Under the pieces are notes generated by a model that ran no database searches, had not been told where the DNA came from, and saw nothing but the letters and a program-made list of their open reading frames with translations. Shown here piece by piece: positions 5,748 to 22,102 of a stretch of DNA of 64,000 nucleotides. The position numbers were made by a program, and so were the translations under genes. This DNA is from Escherichia coli (lineage in GTDB: Bacteria; Pseudomonadota; Gammaproteobacteria; Enterobacterales; Enterobacteriaceae), in NCBI RefSeq assembly GCF_036507355.1, contig NZ_AP027877.1. One strand, given 5' to 3'. The number at the start of each line of letters is the position of its first letter. Position 1 is the first letter of the stretch.

Positions 5748-6242
5748 TTAATGTGTATTTATCGCTTTCAACTCTTGCTGGCATTTTTCTGACTGGCAGC
5801 GTCGCAACTCAATAATCCCGACATGCATCATCGAGCCAATAAAGCCGCTTTCGCTGACATAATCCTCATTAACTATCGGTCGAGTGCCGGGCTTGCCCTG
5901 GCAAACCAGCATAAAAAATGAGGTGTAGCACTGCCAGCCGGGATTTAAACCGGCTTTTTCTTGTGCTGACATATCGTGAAGATAAATAAGTTCTTTTTCG
6001 TTCCCGCCTGACAACTGCCAGCGGCGGGTATTATCAGGTAAGTTATCGCTACAACAATTTGTCTTACACCGGGAAGGCGCAATATTTACCGCAATGCTAC
6101 CCTTTAACCCTCTGGTTTTATCTTTAGGGGTCAGTAACCAGTCGCCAGCTAATGATGATTGTTCAGGTTGGGCACATGCAGTCAGCAGTAGTGTGGCGGC
6201 AATGAATGTTACTCTTACGACCAGACTCCTTTTGGTCTTCAT
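5748..6242 (-). CDS. ybfP: Small lipoprotein YbfP (164 aa)
   Basis: ORF 5748..6242; signal peptide with lipobox LLTAC-A; family member recalled from E. coli. Confidence 0.85.
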   Translation of the reverse strand: MKTKRSLVVRVTFIAATLLLTACAQPEQSSLAGDWLLTPKDKTRGLKGSIAVNIAPSRCKTNCCSDNLPDNTRRWQLSGGNEKELIYLHDMSAQEKAGLNPGWQCYTSFFMLVCQGKPGTRPIVNEDYVSESGFIGSMMHVGIIELRRCQSEKCQQELKAINTH

Positions 6243-11876: not shown

Positions 11877-13283
11877 TCAGAAGATGGTGAATGGTGCGAT
11901 TACCATAAATTTCACGTCACGCTCATCCTGGAAGATGTTGCCGTAACCACCGCCCCAGCTTGGGATGTCGGAGTGGTTGTCGTATTCGGTGAAATGCAGT
12001 TTGAACATCGTGCCTTTGGCGCGGCCGTCCTGAATGGTGTAGACCGCATCCAGGCTGTATGCAGACTCTTCAATAGTCCGGTTTTTGTCGTAGTACGCAT
12101 CCGGATTGCTCTGCCAGGTCGCAGGTTTAGCATCCCATGCGTAAACGTAGGAAGCGCCGATGGCGAAGCCTGGAAGATTCCAGTTTTTCAGGTCATACAT
12201 CGCACCGAAGAAGACCGCTTTTTCGCCGTTGGCGTTGAAGTCAGAACGGTTATCCCACCAGATATCCAGGCGACCGTTCGAGGAAGCGTAGGTTGGAGTC
12301 ATACGTTGCAGGAAGTATCCCTGCTGACCGTCAGCTTTAACCCAGGTGCCTTCGAGGCGCAAATCCACTACGTCAGCCGCCCGGTAACCAAAGGTCAACG
12401 CTTGCAGCCAGGCGGTGCCGTCATAAAGATCGTTGACGCTGCGATCGTCAACTTTATCGCGCGTACCGTAGAACTGGTAGCTGGTGGTTAACGGGCTACC
12501 GGCGATATCAAATTTGTAGCTGGCTTTGGCAAAGTATTGATCGATATACCCTTCCGCCTGACCAAATGCCGCTTCCAGTACGAAGTTATTTTTGAAGTCG
12601 TATTTCGCACCGATGGAGTGCAGATAATCAACTTTGGTAGTTTTATCGTTCTGATAAAACTCATCCATTTCCAGATGCCACGGTGCTTTGTATTCGTTGG
12701 TCCACATGTAGGAGAAACTCAACGCACCGGCATCGCCGTAATCAAAATTCGCTCCGGCTTCCGCACCCTGATAGGTACCTGGCATAAAGCTCCAGTGCGG
12801 CGCTAACAGCGTCTGACCGGTTGGCTGAATATAACCTGCCCTCGCCCAAACCGGACCGTATTTAAATTTGGCCGCAGCTTTATACAGGCTTATACCGCTT
12901 TTGTCGCCGGACCAGTCTTCGTCATAGGCTTTATTACTTTTTGAAAACGCGATTTCGTTCGGGTGAGAGCTGTCGCCGTTTTCCGCCATTTCAATCGCCG
13001 TAAACGCAGCAATATCAAGGCCGAACATATCAGCAGCATAACCGGACTGAAAATCGAGGTTGGCATTCCAGGTGGAGTGAGAAAGGTTGGTTTTGTATTT
13101 GTCGCCGTCGGTAACATCTTTACGGTCGCGTTCACGCTGCCAGTAATATATACCGCCGGTTAAGGTTGAATCGTCGATGAATCCTTCGGCGCGAGCCTCC
13201 GGCATTGCCATAAAGCCCGACATTGCTGTAACACCGGCGATAGCCAGCGCCAGCGTACTACGTTTGCCACTAAACGTACGCAT
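11877..13283 (-). CDS. chiP: Chitooligosaccharide-specific outer-membrane porin ChiP/YbfM (468 aa)
   Basis: ORF 11877..13283; signal peptide, OprD-like beta-barrel with C-terminal aromatic residue (F). Confidence 0.93.
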
Positions 13284-13400
13284 GGGTTAATCCTCTTTGA
13301 CGTATAAATTGCTGCACCAAAGGTGAACAGCGAAAAAAAATAAAAATTAAAAAAGTAGCGTTGAGAAAAGTCTCGCTGACTACAGGAACAGACTATTTTT
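13284..13400 (-). promoter_or_regulatory. chiP 5' leader and promoter-proximal region (expected ChiX sRNA pairing site and NagC control)
   Basis: AT-rich untranslated region directly upstream of the chiP start; regulation inferred from E. coli/Salmonella literature, not demonstrated here. Confidence 0.4.
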
Positions 13401-13632
13401 CGCGACGCGAATTATCAATCTCTTTCTGTAACCAGAATGTAAGAACATGAGCAACCGCACATATTTTGATGATTTTTGTTACAAGGCTTAAGTTTGCGGT
13501 TGAAAGGCTTGCAGAAGAATAAAAGCGTGAATTTCCAGCAAGATGAAAGCGGTTACATTTTATTTAATTATGTTTTGTTATTTTAAATTTATTTTATGGA
13601 TAAATTGCGAAGCGGAATTAATTCGCGAAGAA

Positions 13633-15785: not shown

Positions 15786-17732
15786 TTACTTTTTGATTTC
15801 ATACAGCGGCGTTTGACCCGCCACAACATGCCCCTGAGCTTTAATGATAAGGCCACTGAAATCGTCGATATTGCTGCAAACCACCGGGCTAATCATCGAA
15901 CGGGCGTTAGCGTTCAGGTAATCCAGATCCATTTCCAGAATCGGTTGCCCTGCGCTTACCTGCGCGCCCTCTTCCACCAGACGTTTAAAGCCTTTACCTT
16001 CCAGCGCTACGGTGTCGATACCCATGTGGACGACAATCTCCGCGCCTTTTTCGGTTTCCAGGCAGAACGCGTGGTTGGTGTTGAAGATTTTCACGATTGT
16101 CCCTGCGGCTGGTGATACGACGATTTTATCTGTCGGTTTCACCGCCACACCGTCACCCACCGCTTTGCTGGCGAATGCTTCGTCAGGAACCTGATCCAGT
16201 GCCACGACATCACCGGTAATCGGCGATACCAGCTCCGCGATAGATACCGCGTTTGGTACAGCCTGCGGTTTTGCTACAGGAGCGGCAGTTGCCGGAGTTG
16301 CTTCAGCAGAGGCAGCTGCTACCGGGCCACGGGCAACGACTTTCTTCATCGCATCGCCGATGGATTCTGCTTTCGCGCCAACAATCACCTGAATAGTCTG
16401 TTTGTTCAGTTTTACTACCCCAGAAGCCCCCAGACGTTTACACATCGTATCGTTAACGCGGGCAGAGTCAGCCACTGTAAGGCGCAGACGGGTGATACAG
16501 GCGTCAATTGCTTTCAGGTTGTCAGTGCCGCCAACCGCAGCAATATAGTTGGTCGCCAGTTGATTGAGGCCTTCTTCAGTGTTGCTGTTGGCTTCTTCAG
16601 TAACGATCTCATCTTCTTTATCTTCACGACCCGGCGTTTTCAGGTTGAACATGCGGATAACCAAACTGAACACCACGAAGTAGATAGCGAAGAAGACAAC
16701 ACCCATCACCAGCAGCATCCAGACGTTCTGGCTGGCGGCCGGCAGGTTATACATCAACGCGTAGTCGATAGCCCCCGCAGAGAAAGAGAAGCCGGCATGG
16801 ATACCCAGCAGCGTTGCCACAAACAGGCTGATACCGGTCAGCAGTGCGTGCAGGAGGTACAGCAGCGGAGCAAGGAACATGAACAGGAATTCCAGCGGCT
16901 CAGTCACACCGGTCAGGAACGCAGTAACAGCAACAGAAAGCAGCATCCCGCCAACCATCGGACGACGCTCTTTCGGTGCTGCGAAGTACATCGCCAGCGC
17001 CGCACCCGGCAGACCGAACATCATGATCGGGAAGAAGCCGGACATGAACATCCCCGCGGTGCCGTCACCAGCGTAGAAACGGTTGATGTCGCCGTGGAAA
17101 ACCGTACCCGCCGCGTTGGTGAATTCACCAATCTGGAACCAGGCGATGGTGTTCAGCACCTGATGCAGACCGGTTGGGATCAGCAGACGGTTGATGAAAC
17201 CAAAGATACCGGAACCCAGCGCGCCCGCAGAAACGATCCACTCGCCGCCTGCATGGATAGCGTGCTGTACCGGCGGCCAGACATAACCAAAAATGGCCGC
17301 CAGCACCAGGCAGAAGAAGCCGGTGGCGATCGGCACAAAGCGTTTGCCGCCAAAGAAGCTCAGGAAGTCCGGCAGTTTAATATCGGACCAACGGTTATAG
17401 GCTGCGCCACCAACCAGACCGGTAATGATACCCGCCAGTACACCCATGTTAATTTCTGGGTTGATGGTCACCATCGCTTTGGTTAACACAAAGTAACCTA
17501 CCGCACCCGCCAGCGCCGCCGCACCTGCGCTGTCTTTCGACCAGCTGGATGCCACACCGATGGCGAAGATTAATGCGAGGTTATCAAAAATCGCACCGCC
17601 CGCCTGGGCAATAAACGCAACGTTAAGTAAATCTGGCTGACCGAATCGCAGCAACAGTGCCGCCACCGGCAGCACCGCGATAGGGAGCTGTAACGCCCTA
17701 CCGAGTCGCTGGAAAAAACCTAAAATATTCAT
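15786..17732 (-). CDS. nagE: PTS N-acetylglucosamine-specific EIICBA component (648 aa)
   Basis: ORF 15786..17732; N-terminal polytopic EIIC, central EIIB, C-terminal EIIA domain. Confidence 0.96.
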   Translation of the reverse strand: MNILGFFQRLGRALQLPIAVLPVAALLLRFGQPDLLNVAFIAQAGGAIFDNLALIFAIGVASSWSKDSAGAAALAGAVGYFVLTKAMVTINPEINMGVLAGIITGLVGGAAYNRWSDIKLPDFLSFFGGKRFVPIATGFFCLVLAAIFGYVWPPVQHAIHAGGEWIVSAGALGSGIFGFINRLLIPTGLHQVLNTIAWFQIGEFTNAAGTVFHGDINRFYAGDGTAGMFMSGFFPIMMFGLPGAALAMYFAAPKERRPMVGGMLLSVAVTAFLTGVTEPLEFLFMFLAPLLYLLHALLTGISLFVATLLGIHAGFSFSAGAIDYALMYNLPAASQNVWMLLVMGVVFFAIYFVVFSLVIRMFNLKTPGREDKEDEIVTEEANSNTEEGLNQLATNYIAAVGGTDNLKAIDACITRLRLTVADSARVNDTMCKRLGASGVVKLNKQTIQVIVGAKAESIGDAMKKVVARGPVAAASAEATPATAAPVAKPQAVPNAVSIAELVSPITGDVVALDQVPDEAFASKAVGDGVAVKPTDKIVVSPAAGTIVKIFNTNHAFCLETEKGAEIVVHMGIDTVALEGKGFKRLVEEGAQVSAGQPILEMDLDYLNANARSMISPVVCSNIDDFSGLIIKAQGHVVAGQTPLYEIKK

Positions 17733-17853
17733 CTTATTCCCCCTACGAGAACCCTATTTGGCTCGTTTAAAGCCGTATTTTTATTGTGCTGCAAATTGTA
17801 CTGCCGATGTTCTGTAATCAGATTGTTAGATCATCTGCCACAGAGTGTGTGAA

Positions 17854-17878
17854 AATTTAATTCGTATCGCAAATTAAA
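17854..17878. promoter_or_regulatory. Candidate NagC operator (nagE-proximal)
   Basis: aatttaattcgtatcgcaaattaaa, an AT-rich dyad (TTAATTCG...CGCAAATTAA) resembling described NagC operators. Confidence 0.5.
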
Positions 17879-17886
17879 CGCGTGTC

Positions 17887-17908
17887 TTTTGTGAGTTTTG
17901 TCACCAAA
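17887..17908. promoter_or_regulatory. CRP binding site in the nagE/nagB divergent promoter region
   Basis: tTGTGAgttttgTCACc matches the TGTGA-N6-TCACA consensus. Confidence 0.6.
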
Positions 17909-18064
17909 TATCGTTATCATCACTCCCTTTTACTGGCTAAATCAGAAAACTTATTTTATCATTCAAAAAATCAGGTCGGATTGACGCCTGTCTGCGCAAA
18001 TCCAAGTTACGCTTAAAGATGCCTAATCCGCCAACGGCTTACATTTTACTTATTGAGGTGAATA

Positions 18065-20073
<2,009 letters not shown>

Positions 20074-20081
20074 GAGAAAGT

Positions 20082-21302
20082 ATGACACCAGGCGGACAAG
20101 CTCAGATAGGTAATGTTGATCTCGTAAAACAGCTTAACAGCGCGGCGGTTTATCGCCTGATTGACCAGTACGGGCCAATCTCGCGGATTCAGATTGCCGA
20201 GCAAAGCCAGCTTGCCCCCGCCAGCGTAACCAAAATTACGCGTCAGCTTATCGAACGCGGGCTGATCAAAGAAGTTGATCAGCAGGCCTCCACCGGGGGC
20301 CGCCGCGCTATCTCTATCGTCACCGAAACCCGCAATTTCCACGCAATCGGCGTACGGCTTGGTCGTCACGACGCCACCATCACCCTGTTTGATCTCAGCA
20401 GCAAAGTGCTGGCAGAAGAACATTACCCGCTGCCGGAACGTACCCAGCAGACGCTGGAACATGCCCTGCTGAATGCCATTGCTCAGTTTATTGATAGCTA
20501 CCAGCGCAAACTGCGCGAGCTGATCGCCATTTCCGTTATCCTGCCAGGGCTTGTTGACCCGGACAGCGGCAAAATTCATTACATGCCGCATATTCAGGTA
20601 GAAAACTGGGGGCTGGTAGAAGCACTGGAAGAGCGTTTTAAAGTGACCTGTTTCGTTGGTCACGATATCCGTAGTCTGGCGCTGGCGGAGCACTACTTCG
20701 GTGCAAGTCAGGATTGCGAAGACTCCATTCTGGTGCGTGTCCATCGCGGAACCGGGGCCGGGATTATCTCTAACGGGCGCATTTTTATTGGCCGCAACGG
20801 TAACGTCGGTGAAATTGGCCATATTCAGGTCGAACCGCTGGGTGAACGCTGCCACTGCGGCAACTTTGGCTGCCTGGAAACTATCGCTGCCAACGCCGCT
20901 ATTGAACAACGGGTGTTGAATCTGTTAAAGCAGGGCTACCAGAGCCGCGTGCCGCTGGACGACTGCACCATCAAAACTATCTGCAAAGCCGCGAACAAAG
21001 GCGATAGCCTGGCCTCGGAAGTGATTGAGTATGTCGGTCGTCATCTGGGCAAAACCATCGCCATTGCCATCAACCTGTTTAACCCGCAAAAAATTGTTAT
21101 TGCCGGAGAAATCACGGAAGCCGATAAAGTGCTGCTCCCTGCTATTGAAAGCTGCATTAATACTCAGGCGCTGAAGGCGTTTCGTACTAATCTGCCGGTG
21201 GTACGTTCTGAGCTGGATCACCGCTCGGCAATCGGCGCTTTTGCGCTGGTAAAACGCGCCATGCTCAACGGTATTTTGCTCCAGCATTTGCTGGAAAATT
21301 AA
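20082..21302 (+). CDS. nagC: ROK-family transcriptional regulator NagC (406 aa)
   Basis: ORF 20082..21302; N-terminal HTH, ROK sugar-kinase-like domain with CxCGxxGC zinc motif. Confidence 0.96.
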   Translation: MTPGGQAQIGNVDLVKQLNSAAVYRLIDQYGPISRIQIAEQSQLAPASVTKITRQLIERGLIKEVDQQASTGGRRAISIVTETRNFHAIGVRLGRHDATITLFDLSSKVLAEEHYPLPERTQQTLEHALLNAIAQFIDSYQRKLRELIAISVILPGLVDPDSGKIHYMPHIQVENWGLVEALEERFKVTCFVGHDIRSLALAEHYFGASQDCEDSILVRVHRGTGAGIISNGRIFIGRNGNVGEIGHIQVEPLGERCHCGNFGCLETIAANAAIEQRVLNLLKQGYQSRVPLDDCTIKTICKAANKGDSLASEVIEYVGRHLGKTIAIAINLFNPQKIVIAGEITEADKVLLPAIESCINTQALKAFRTNLPVVRSELDHRSAIGAFALVKRAMLNGILLQHLLEN

Positions 21303-21349
21303 TGTGCTTTTATAGTGGCGCTTATTGTTGTCAATATTCTGGGTAGTCC

Positions 21350-22102
21350 ATGACCATTAAAAATGTAATTTGCGATATCGACGGCGTGCTGATGCACGAT
21401 AACGTCGCCGTACCGGGTGCAGCGGAATTTTTGCACGGGATTATGGATAAAGGCCTGCCGCTGGTGTTGCTGACCAACTATCCTTCGCAGACCGGGCAAG
21501 ATCTGGCGAACCGCTTTGCCACTGCCGGTGTCGATGTACCTGACAGCGTGTTTTATACCTCTGCGATGGCGACCGCCGATTTCCTGCGTCGCCAGGAAGG
21601 CAAGAAAGCGTATGTGGTGGGCGAAGGCGCGCTGATTCATGAGCTGTACAAAGCCGGTTTCACTATTACCGATGTGAACCCTGATTTTGTGATTGTTGGC
21701 GAAACTCGTTCCTACAACTGGGACATGATGCATAAAGCAGCTTATTTCGTCGCTAACGGTGCACGCTTTATCGCCACCAACCCGGACACCCACGGGCGCG
21801 GTTTTTATCCGGCCTGTGGCGCGTTGTGTGCAGGGATTGAGAAAATCTCCGGGCGCAAACCATTCTATGTGGGTAAGCCGAGTCCGTGGATCATCCGCGC
21901 GGCATTAAACAAAATGCAGGCCCACTCGGAAGAAACGGTGATTGTCGGCGATAACCTGCGTACCGACATTCTGGCGGGCTTCCAGGCGGGTCTGGAGACG
22001 ATTCTGGTGCTTTCTGGTGTTTCATCGCTCGACGATATCGACAGTATGCCTTTCCGCCCAAGCTGGATTTACCCGTCAGTCGCTGAAATCGACGTTATCT
22101 GA
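21350..22102 (+). CDS. nagD: HAD-family UMP phosphatase NagD/UmpH (250 aa)
   Basis: ORF 21350..22102; HAD motif I DIDGVL. Confidence 0.95.
   Translation: MTIKNVICDIDGVLMHDNVAVPGAAEFLHGIMDKGLPLVLLTNYPSQTGQDLANRFATAGVDVPDSVFYTSAMATADFLRRQEGKKAYVVGEGALIHELYKAGFTITDVNPDFVIVGETRSYNWDMMHKAAYFVANGARFIATNPDTHGRGFYPACGALCAGIEKISGRKPFYVGKPSPWIIRAALNKMQAHSEETVIVGDNLRTDILAGFQAGLETILVLSGVSSLDDIDSMPFRPSWIYPSVAEIDVI

What the first reader, a model, noticed from the sequence alone, without database searches (positions are those of the whole stretch)
17733..18064. nagE/nagBACD divergent control region with a CRP site and AT-rich dyads
The 332-bp spacer between divergent nagE and nagB contains a good CRP site (TGTGAgttttgTCACc, 17887..17908) flanked by AT-rich dyads (aatttaattcgtatcgcaaattaaa at 17854..17878 and cttattttatcattcaaaaaatcagg near 17950..17975) that resemble NagC operators. 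This matches the described loop-forming NagC/CRP architecture, but the exact operator boundaries are inferred by eye.
Basis: partly seen in the sequence, partly recalled or inferred. Interest (0 to 1): 0.2.

Follow-up and report, generated by a model that had tools for sequence, protein, structure and literature searches.

The report
Known nagE–nagB NagC/CRP control region

Summary
Confirmed and already known. Window 17733-18064 is the 332-bp spacer between divergent nagE (-) and nagBACD (+) of E. coli. It differs from K-12 MG1655 at 6 bases, none inside a site. The CRP site is 17887-17908, with core TGTGAgttttgTCACc at 17890-17905 matching 9 of 10 consensus bases.

A NagC matrix built only from eight operators of other genes ranks the two sites 2nd and 4th of 63,978 window positions. 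The CRP core alone is not rarer than chance in 64 kb (2 found, 1.7 expected). Its support comes from its position and its conservation.

Of 80 NagB-anchored genomes, 59 have a divergent nagE (60 regions with the window). In 58 of 60 the operator centres lie 93-94 bp apart, and in 56 of 60 the CRP site lies 30.5 bp from the nagE operator, while both leaders vary widely in length.

This fits the published mechanism: NagC bound to both operators loops the DNA and CRP activates both promoters. Looping, the transcription starts and induction were not tested here. In passing: two nagE lineages about 45% identical share this control region.

The parts
15786..17732 (-). nagE, the N-acetylglucosamine PTS transporter EIIABC; the leftward regulated gene
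   Evidence: NCBIfam NF007608 equivalog, 1449 bits against a cut-off of 1010. Annotated as nagE in E. coli genomes.
17733..18064 (.). The 332-bp nagE-nagB divergent control region
   Evidence: Same length as the K-12 MG1655 spacer. Six SNPs against K-12 (17769, 17786, 17839, 17918, 17942, 18005), none inside an operator or the CRP site.
17844..17849 (-). Inferred nagE -10 hexamer, CACACT on the minus strand. The inferred nagE transcription start is about 17836.
   Evidence: Inference from sequence. It lies 17 bp downstream of TTGCGA (17867-17872, minus strand). The block GAGTGT at 17843-17848 is conserved at 90% or more in 43 Enterobacterales loci. A start at 17836 puts CRP at -61.5. No transcription start was measured here.
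17856..17878 (-). nagE NagC operator (BoxE), 23 bp, centre 17867. This is the weak, Mlc-like operator, and it overlaps the inferred nagE -35 and spacer.
   Evidence: Exact match to the published TTTAATTTGCGATACGAATTAAA. TT at -6/-5 and AA at +5/+6. T and A at +/-11. Leave-out matrix score 19.3 bits, rank 2 of 63,978.
17887..17908 (.). cAMP-CRP (CAP) site, 22 bp, centre 17897.5. The core TGTGAgttttgTCACc is at 17890-17905.
   Evidence: Matches 9 of 10 core consensus bases. It lies 30.5 bp from the nagE operator centre and 63.5 bp from the nagB operator centre, the same offsets as in 56 and 52 of 60 orthologous regions.
17934..17939 (+). Inferred nagB -35 hexamer, TGGCTA
   Evidence: Lies 17 bp upstream of TATCAT. 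The block CTGGCTA at 17933-17939 is strongly conserved in the anchored alignment of 49 loci, although it lies outside any operator or the CRP site.
17950..17972 (+). nagB NagC operator (BoxB), 23 bp, centre 17961. This is the strong operator. It covers the inferred nagB -10 (TATCAT, 17957-17962) and the inferred start at about 17969.
   Evidence: Exact match to the published CTTATTTTATCATTCAAAAAATC. TT and AA at +/-5,6. C at -11 and at +11. Leave-out matrix score 14.3 bits, rank 4 of 63,978.
18065..22102 (+). nagBACD operon: nagB 18065-18865, nagA 18925-20073, nagC 20082-21302, nagD 21350-22102. The repressor gene nagC lies inside the operon it represses.
   Evidence: NCBIfam equivalogs: NagB 627 bits, NagA 745 bits, NagC NF047937 719 bits against a cut-off of 650, NagD-type HAD-IIA hydrolase 550 bits.

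Best explanation
This is the nagE-nagBACD divergent control region of E. coli, and it works as published.

- Repression: the ROK-family repressor NagC, encoded at 20082-21302 in the same operon, binds two 23-bp operators whose centres are 94 bp apart, about nine helical turns. The strong nagB operator (17950-17972) covers the nagB -10 and start. The weak nagE operator (17856-17878) covers the nagE -35 and spacer. The weak operator is filled only through cooperative binding with the strong one, which loops out the DNA between them and shuts both promoters.
- Activation: cAMP-CRP binds inside the loop at 17887-17908. That is about -61.5 from the nagE start and -71.5 from the nagB start, so it activates both promoters as a class I activator.
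- Induction: GlcNAc-6-phosphate releases NagC.

Shown here: the identity and exact positions of the sites, their matrix scores, their spacing, and conservation of the geometry across three bacterial orders.

Taken from the literature or inferred, not tested here: looping, CRP activation, the inducer, and the exact transcription starts.
For: - Genes identified as nagE and nagB, nagA, nagC, nagD. Locus is 95-99.8% identical to 5,424 E. coli genomes. Six SNPs against K-12, none in a site.
- Both operators are identical to the published NagC operators (PMC3098098 Table 1; located).
- The matrix built without them ranks them 2 and 4 of 63,978 positions. P = 5e-5 for two such hits by chance.
- Both carry the invariant TT/AA at +/-5,6. 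The nagB operator has C at both +/-11 and the nagE operator has A/T, exactly as PMC4288165 describes for the strong and the 'hybrid' operator.
- PMC4288165 states that the nagE operator relies on cooperative binding with the strong nagB operator through DNA loop formation. PMC5401889 says the same of nagE-B.
- CRP core matches 9 of 10 bases.
- In 60 regions from Enterobacterales, Aeromonadales, Vibrionales and one Pasteurellales genome, operator spacing is 93-94 bp in 58, and nagE operator to CRP is 30.5 bp in 56. Meanwhile the distance from operator to ATG varies from 64 to 270 bp on the nagB side and 94 to 186 bp on the nagE side.
- The strong/weak asymmetry is conserved. The nagE-side operator has A/T at +/-11 in 58 of 58 loci. 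The nagB-side operator has C/G at -11 in 57 of 58.
- Conserved blocks match the inferred -35 and -10 elements.
Against: Nothing contradicts it. The limits are these:
- The primary footprinting and looping papers (Plumbridge & Kolb 1991, 1993, 1998; Plumbridge 2001) are not in the held library. The CAP positions of -61.5 and -71.5 and the 133-bp distance between starts therefore rest on my recollection plus sequence inference.
- No formal CRP matrix was available. The CRP core by itself is at chance frequency in the 64-kb window.
- The simple consensus promoter scan did not call either promoter, as expected for weak, activator-dependent promoters.
- The leave-out matrix scores the nagE operator above the nagB operator, the opposite of the published affinities. 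The matrix does not capture the +/-11 rule.
- The orthologous operator pairs were picked with the same matrix, so the 58 of 58 TT/AA count is partly circular.
Confidence: 0.97

Rival explanations
1. The left dyad (17856-17878) is really an Mlc operator, so nagE would belong to the glucose (Mlc) regulon rather than being NagC-controlled.
For: The site has A/T at +/-11, the hallmark of Mlc sites. PMC4288165 calls it a hybrid Mlc/NagC site that NagC does not repress when it stands alone. A/T at +/-11 is conserved in 58 of 58 loci.
Against: [quoted passage not shown] Its fixed 93-94 bp phasing with the strong NagC operator in 58 of 60 loci argues that it works as the second leg of a NagC loop.
Confidence: 0.03
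2. The dyads and the TGTGA...TCAC motif are chance features of an AT-rich promoter region (-10/-35 or UP-element sequence) and not transcription-factor sites.
For: The spacer is 38% G+C. The CRP core occurs in the window at chance frequency. The nagB operator overlaps a -10-like TATCAT, so part of its conservation could come from the promoter.
Against: The dyads are identical to experimentally defined operators. Matrix ranks are 2 and 4 of 63,978 and the chance P is 5e-5. Spacing stays invariant across three orders while the sequence between the sites diverges.
Confidence: 0.01

Closest known systems
E. coli K-12 nagE-nagBACD regulatory region (NagC BoxE/BoxB plus CAP site; Plumbridge & Kolb)
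   Same: Same locus, same 332-bp length, and identical operators and CRP site. There are only 6 SNPs, all outside the sites.
   Different: Nothing functional. The window comes from another E. coli strain, whose best matches are 99.8% identical.
Other two-operator NagC targets (chbB, glmU, fimB, manX, chiP)
   Same: The same 23-bp quasi-palindrome with TT/AA at +/-5,6, and cooperative two-site binding. The chiP proximal operator is in this window at 13394-13416.
   Different: Here the two operators each overlap one of two divergent promoters and bracket a CRP site within a short 94-bp loop.
gal, lac and deo repression loops with an internal CRP site
   Same: Two in-phase operators with a protein-induced bend inside the loop. 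This comparison rests on general knowledge.
   Different: The repressor family differs: ROK here, against LacI/GalR or DeoR. This loop silences two divergent promoters at once.

Membership tests
NagC/Mlc (ROK repressor) operator | 23-bp quasi-palindrome with invariant TT at -6,-5 and AA at +5,+6 (PMC4288165) | tested here: met
   Met for both sites: centre 17867 has TT at 17861-62 and AA at 17872-73; centre 17961 has TT at 17955-56 and AA at 17966-67. Also met in 58 of 58 orthologous pairs, although the matrix used to pick them favours this feature.
NagC/Mlc (ROK repressor) operator | Scores as a NagC site with a matrix built from independent known operators | tested here: met
   With 8 non-nag operators as the training set, the sites score 19.3 and 14.3 bits, ranks 2 and 4 of 63,978. 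Rank 1 is the chiP training site. Rank 3 lacks the TT and lies inside an ORF.
High-affinity NagC-specific operator | C or G at positions +/-11 (PMC4288165) | tested here: met
   nagB operator: C at 17950 and C at 17972. Met.
High-affinity NagC-specific operator | C or G at positions +/-11, applied to the nagE operator | tested here: not met
   nagE operator: T at 17856 and A at 17878. This matches its published status as a weak, Mlc-like operator that needs the nagB operator.
Experimentally defined nagE/nagB operators | Sequence identity to the published operators | tested here: met
   Exact 23 of 23 matches to PMC3098098 Table 1.
cAMP-CRP binding site | TGTGA-N6-TCACA core within a 22-bp site | tested here: met
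   9 of 10 core bases with the correct 6-bp spacer. One or two mismatches at the same offset in 58 of 60 loci. No curated CRP matrix was available.
Class I CRP-dependent promoter | Site centred near -61.5 or -71.5 from a mapped transcription start | not testable with these tools
   The starts (about 17836 and 17969) are inferred from -10 elements and conservation and from my recollection of a 133-bp distance between starts. They were not measured.
Loop-forming dual-operator repression | Operators separated by an integral number of helical turns, with the spacing conserved | tested here: met
   94 bp is 8.95 turns at 10.5 bp per turn. Spacing is 93-94 bp in 58 of 60 loci, while leader lengths vary by more than 90 bp.
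Loop-forming dual-operator repression | Physical loop, and loss of repression on half-turn insertions | not testable with these tools
   Stated in the literature (PMC4288165, citing Plumbridge & Kolb 1993). The primary paper is not held.
nag regulon | Cognate repressor gene nagC encoded in the regulated operon | tested here: met
   20082-21302 matches NF047937 (TransRegNagC) at 719 bits against a cut-off of 650.

The most novel reading that the evidence does not exclude
The control region itself is not new. The most novel readings left open concern what surrounds it.

(a) The NagC-CRP-NagC cassette behaves as a fixed module. It has been kept while the adjacent nagE gene was replaced in situ by a lineage only 44-45% identical. 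Both lineages occur within the single genus Enterobacter.

(b) Two conserved blocks in the leaders have no assigned role: TTTTTATTGTG at 17779-17789 in the nagE 5'UTR and GTTACGCTTA at 18006-18015 in the nagB 5'UTR. They could mark an undescribed post-transcriptional or extra transcriptional control.
Probability: 0.15. Interest if true: 0.35.

Novelty: already known. Interest (0 to 1): 0.08.

Why it matters
This region is a classic model for repression by DNA looping combined with CRP activation at divergent promoters. It controls amino-sugar uptake and catabolism, which matters for gut colonisation. Finding it here adds no new biology. The useful outcomes are exact site coordinates in this window and a quantitative demonstration that the 94 / 30.5 / 63.5-bp geometry and the strong/weak operator asymmetry are conserved across Enterobacterales, Aeromonadales and Vibrionales.

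Tried and rejected
- Primary literature: Plumbridge 2001 (doi and PMC29661), El Qaidi & Plumbridge 2008 (PMC2446801), Plumbridge & Kolb 1998 (PMC147383) and Plumbridge 1996 (PMC177988) are not held. I could not cite footprint limits or mapped starts.
- Full-text search for the CRP-site string returned only unrelated vector and primer papers.
- The consensus sigma-70 scan found neither promoter. It reported only a weak match overlapping the nagB start codon, plus a terminator-like hairpin at 17759-17775 (plus strand) inside the nagE leader region. I regard both as chance.
- The inverted-repeat finder reported only an imperfect palindrome at 17867-17894 spanning the operator and CRP junction. 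It was not informative.
- Rfam with a permissive E-value found nothing real, only a snoRNA model at E = 0.82.
- Neither 5' leader folds unusually: z = -1.1 for nagB and z = -1.5 for nagE. I dropped a structured leader or riboswitch reading.
- A weak NagC-like matrix hit overlaps the CRP site in some Enterobacteriaceae (9-11.6 bits). It is absent in E. coli, where G replaces T at -6, so I rejected it as a third operator.
- The matrix hit at 5968-5990 (15.5 bits) lies inside an ORF and lacks the invariant TT, so I rejected it.

Full report
**1. Observation**

Window 17733-18064 is the 332-bp gap between a minus-strand ORF at 15786-17732 and a plus-strand ORF starting at 18065.

- The left dyad, aatttaattcgtatcgcaaattaaa, is at 17854-17878.
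- The right dyad, cttattttatcattcaaaaaatcagg, is at 17950-17975.
- The quoted CRP 16-mer is at 17890-17905. The stated 17887-17908 is the full 22-bp site.

**2. Identity of the locus**

The flanking ORFs match NCBIfam equivalog models above their cut-offs:

| Gene | Model | Score (cut-off) |
|---|---|---|
| nagE | NF007608 | 1449 bits (1010) |
| nagB | NF001685 | 627 bits (513) |
| nagA | NF008371 | 745 bits (483) |
| nagC | NF047937 | 719 bits (650) |
| nagD-type HAD-IIA hydrolase | NF007762 | 550 bits (368) |

- glnS lies beyond nagE.
- The stretch 17500-18300 matches 5,424 of 5,426 complete E. coli genomes at 95-99.8% identity, annotated as nagB and nagE.
- Against K-12 MG1655 the spacer has the same length and six substitutions (17769, 17786, 17839, 17918, 17942, 18005). 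None lies in an operator or the CRP site.

**3. The NagC operators**

- PMC3098098 (FITBAR), Table 1, lists ten known NagC operators compiled from Plumbridge's work.
- The nagB entry, CTTATTTTATCATTCAAAAAATC, occurs exactly at 17950-17972 on the plus strand.
- The nagE entry, TTTAATTTGCGATACGAATTAAA, occurs exactly at 17856-17878 on the minus strand.
- The chiP (ybfM) proximal operator is also in the window, at 13394-13416.

Both operators satisfy the rule in PMC4288165: TT at -6,-5 and AA at +5,+6 around the centre. The centres are 17867 and 17961.

- The nagB operator has C at both +/-11, the mark of high-affinity NagC sites.
- The nagE operator has T and A at +/-11. The paper describes this as the unusual, Mlc-like feature that makes the site depend on cooperative binding with the strong nagB operator through a DNA loop.

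**4.

To avoid circularity I built a symmetric log-odds matrix from only the eight operators of other genes and scanned all 63,978 positions of the window.

| Rank | Position | Score | Comment |
|---|---|---|---|
| 1 | 13394-13416 | 24.1 bits | chiP operator, part of the training set |
| 2 | 17856-17878 | 19.3 bits | nagE operator |
| 3 | 5968-5990 | 15.5 bits | inside an ORF, lacks the invariant TT |
| 4 | 17950-17972 | 14.3 bits | nagB operator |

- In 20,000 first-order Markov sequences with the spacer's composition, P(max >= 13.8 bits) = 0.022.
- P(max >= 18.9 bits) = 0.0004.
- P(two separate hits >= 13.8 bits) = 5e-5.
- The matrix ranks the nagE operator above the nagB operator, the reverse of the published affinities, because it does not encode the +/-11 rule.

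**5. The CRP site**

- The core TGTGA-N6-TCACc matches 9 of 10 consensus bases.
- At this stringency the 64-kb window has 2 matches against 1.7 expected, so the motif alone is not significant at window scale.
- The chance of one in a 332-bp sequence of this composition is 0.009.
- The stronger evidence is its conserved position (section 6).
- I had no curated CRP matrix.

**6. Phylogenetic footprint**

A scan of one genome per species, anchored on the NagB protein, returned 80 loci. A nagE-type gene lies divergently upstream in 59 of them. With the window that makes 60 regions from Enterobacterales, Aeromonas, Vibrionaceae and one Pasteurellaceae genome.

- Operator spacing: picking the best pair of leave-out matrix hits in each spacer, the centres are 94 bp apart in 49 regions and 93 bp apart in 9, so 58 of 60.
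- CRP offset: the CRP core is centred 30.5 bp from the nagE-side operator in 56 regions and 63.5 bp from the nagB-side operator in 52.
- CRP quality: the core has at most 2 mismatches in 58 regions.
- Leaders vary: the distance from operator to start codon ranges from 64 to 270 bp for nagB and 94 to 186 bp for nagE.
- Asymmetry is conserved: the nagE-side operator has A/T at both +/-11 in 58 of 58 loci. The nagB-side operator has C/G at -11 in 57 of 58 and at +11 in 51 of 58.

Because 94 bp is 8.95 helical turns, fixed spacing fits a phase-dependent loop with a CRP-induced bend at a fixed place inside it.

**7. Promoters (inferred)**

Outside the three sites, the anchored alignment shows further conserved blocks.

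- CTGGCTA at 17933-17939. TGGCTA lies 17 bp upstream of TATCAT (17957-17962, inside the nagB operator). This gives an inferred nagB start at about 17969.
- GAGTGT at 17843-17848. On the minus strand, TTGCGA (17872-17867, inside the nagE operator) lies 17 bp upstream of CACACT (17849-17844). This gives an inferred nagE start at about 17836.

These starts are 133 bp apart and put CRP at -61.5 (nagE) and -71.5 (nagB). That agrees with my recollection of Plumbridge & Kolb 1991, which I could not read. On this reading NagC covers the -10 and start of nagB and the -35 and spacer of nagE. The generic promoter scan missed both weak promoters.

**8. Mechanism**

- Shown here: site identity, positions, scores, phasing and conservation.
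- From the held literature: NagC represses nagE and nagBACD. Two sites and looping are required. The nagE operator depends on the nagB operator.
- From general knowledge: CRP activates both promoters and stabilises the loop, and GlcNAc-6-P is the inducer.

**9. Other checks**

- No Rfam family matches.
- Neither leader folds unusually.

**10. Noticed in passing**

The gene divergent from nagB falls into two lineages.

- Type A is K-12-like, at 87-99% identity over the first 120 residues. Type B is about 38% identical there and 44-45% identical over the roughly 390 residues available.
- Both exceed the cut-off of TIGR01998, the GlcNAc-specific IIBC model.
- Among 43 Enterobacterales loci, 12 are type A and 31 are type B.
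- Enterobacter cloacae carries type A and E. asburiae carries type B, although their NagB proteins are each 95% identical to the query.
- Both types sit next to the same control cassette.
- One draft contig labelled E. coli (L003) joins an E. coli-like nagB to a type B nagE. No complete E. coli genome carries that DNA. It is either a rare recombinant or a chimeric assembly.

**11. Verdict**

Interest is low.

Noticed in passing
window 15786-17732 (nagE); loci L003, L007, L008 and others, upstream of position 1501: Two deeply divergent nagE lineages occupy the same position opposite nagB. They are 44-45% identical over the IIC domain, and both pass the TIGR01998 cut-off. Among 43 Enterobacterales loci, 12 are K-12-like and 31 are the other type. 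Enterobacter cloacae and E. asburiae differ in type. The NagC/CRP cassette is conserved next to both.
   Followed up: partly
L003:1-1300 (contig NZ_JAATUR010000059.1, labelled E. coli SCPM-O-B-8794): This contig joins an E. coli-like nagB (protein 100% identical to the window's) and right half of the spacer to a non-E. coli-type nagE. That nagE DNA matches no complete E. coli genome. It is a rare recombinant with a breakpoint inside the spacer, or a chimeric assembly.
   Followed up: partly
window 17779-17789: The block TTTTTATTGTG (CACAAUAAAAA in the nagE 5'UTR) is conserved next to both nagE lineages and has no assigned function. There is no unusual RNA fold (z = -1.5) and no Rfam hit.
   Followed up: partly
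window 18006-18015: The block GTTACGCTTA in the nagB 5'UTR is conserved in Enterobacterales and has no assigned function. The leader fold has z = -1.1.
   Followed up: partly
window 13394-13416 and 13599-13621: The published chiP (ybfM) proximal NagC operator is present exactly, upstream of chiP (11877-13283, minus strand). A weaker NagC-like hit of 11.7 bits lies with its centre 205 bp further upstream and could be the distal chiP site.
   Followed up: no
window 17856-17878 versus 17950-17972: A matrix built from known operators scores the weak nagE operator (19.3 bits) above the strong nagB operator (14.3 bits). Matrix score does not follow the published affinity, which depends on C/G at +/-11.
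   Followed up: yes
window 17904 (last core base of the CRP site) and 17905-17913: The one non-consensus base of the CRP core (TCACc rather than TCACA) is C or T, not the consensus A, in most of the 60 regions. The flank aAAtAtcg is conserved as well. This suggests tuned CRP affinity or an added constraint.
   Followed up: no
window 5968-5990: A NagC-matrix hit of 15.5 bits, third best in the window, lies inside ORF 5748-6242 and lacks the invariant TT at -6/-5. It is probably chance.
   Followed up: partly
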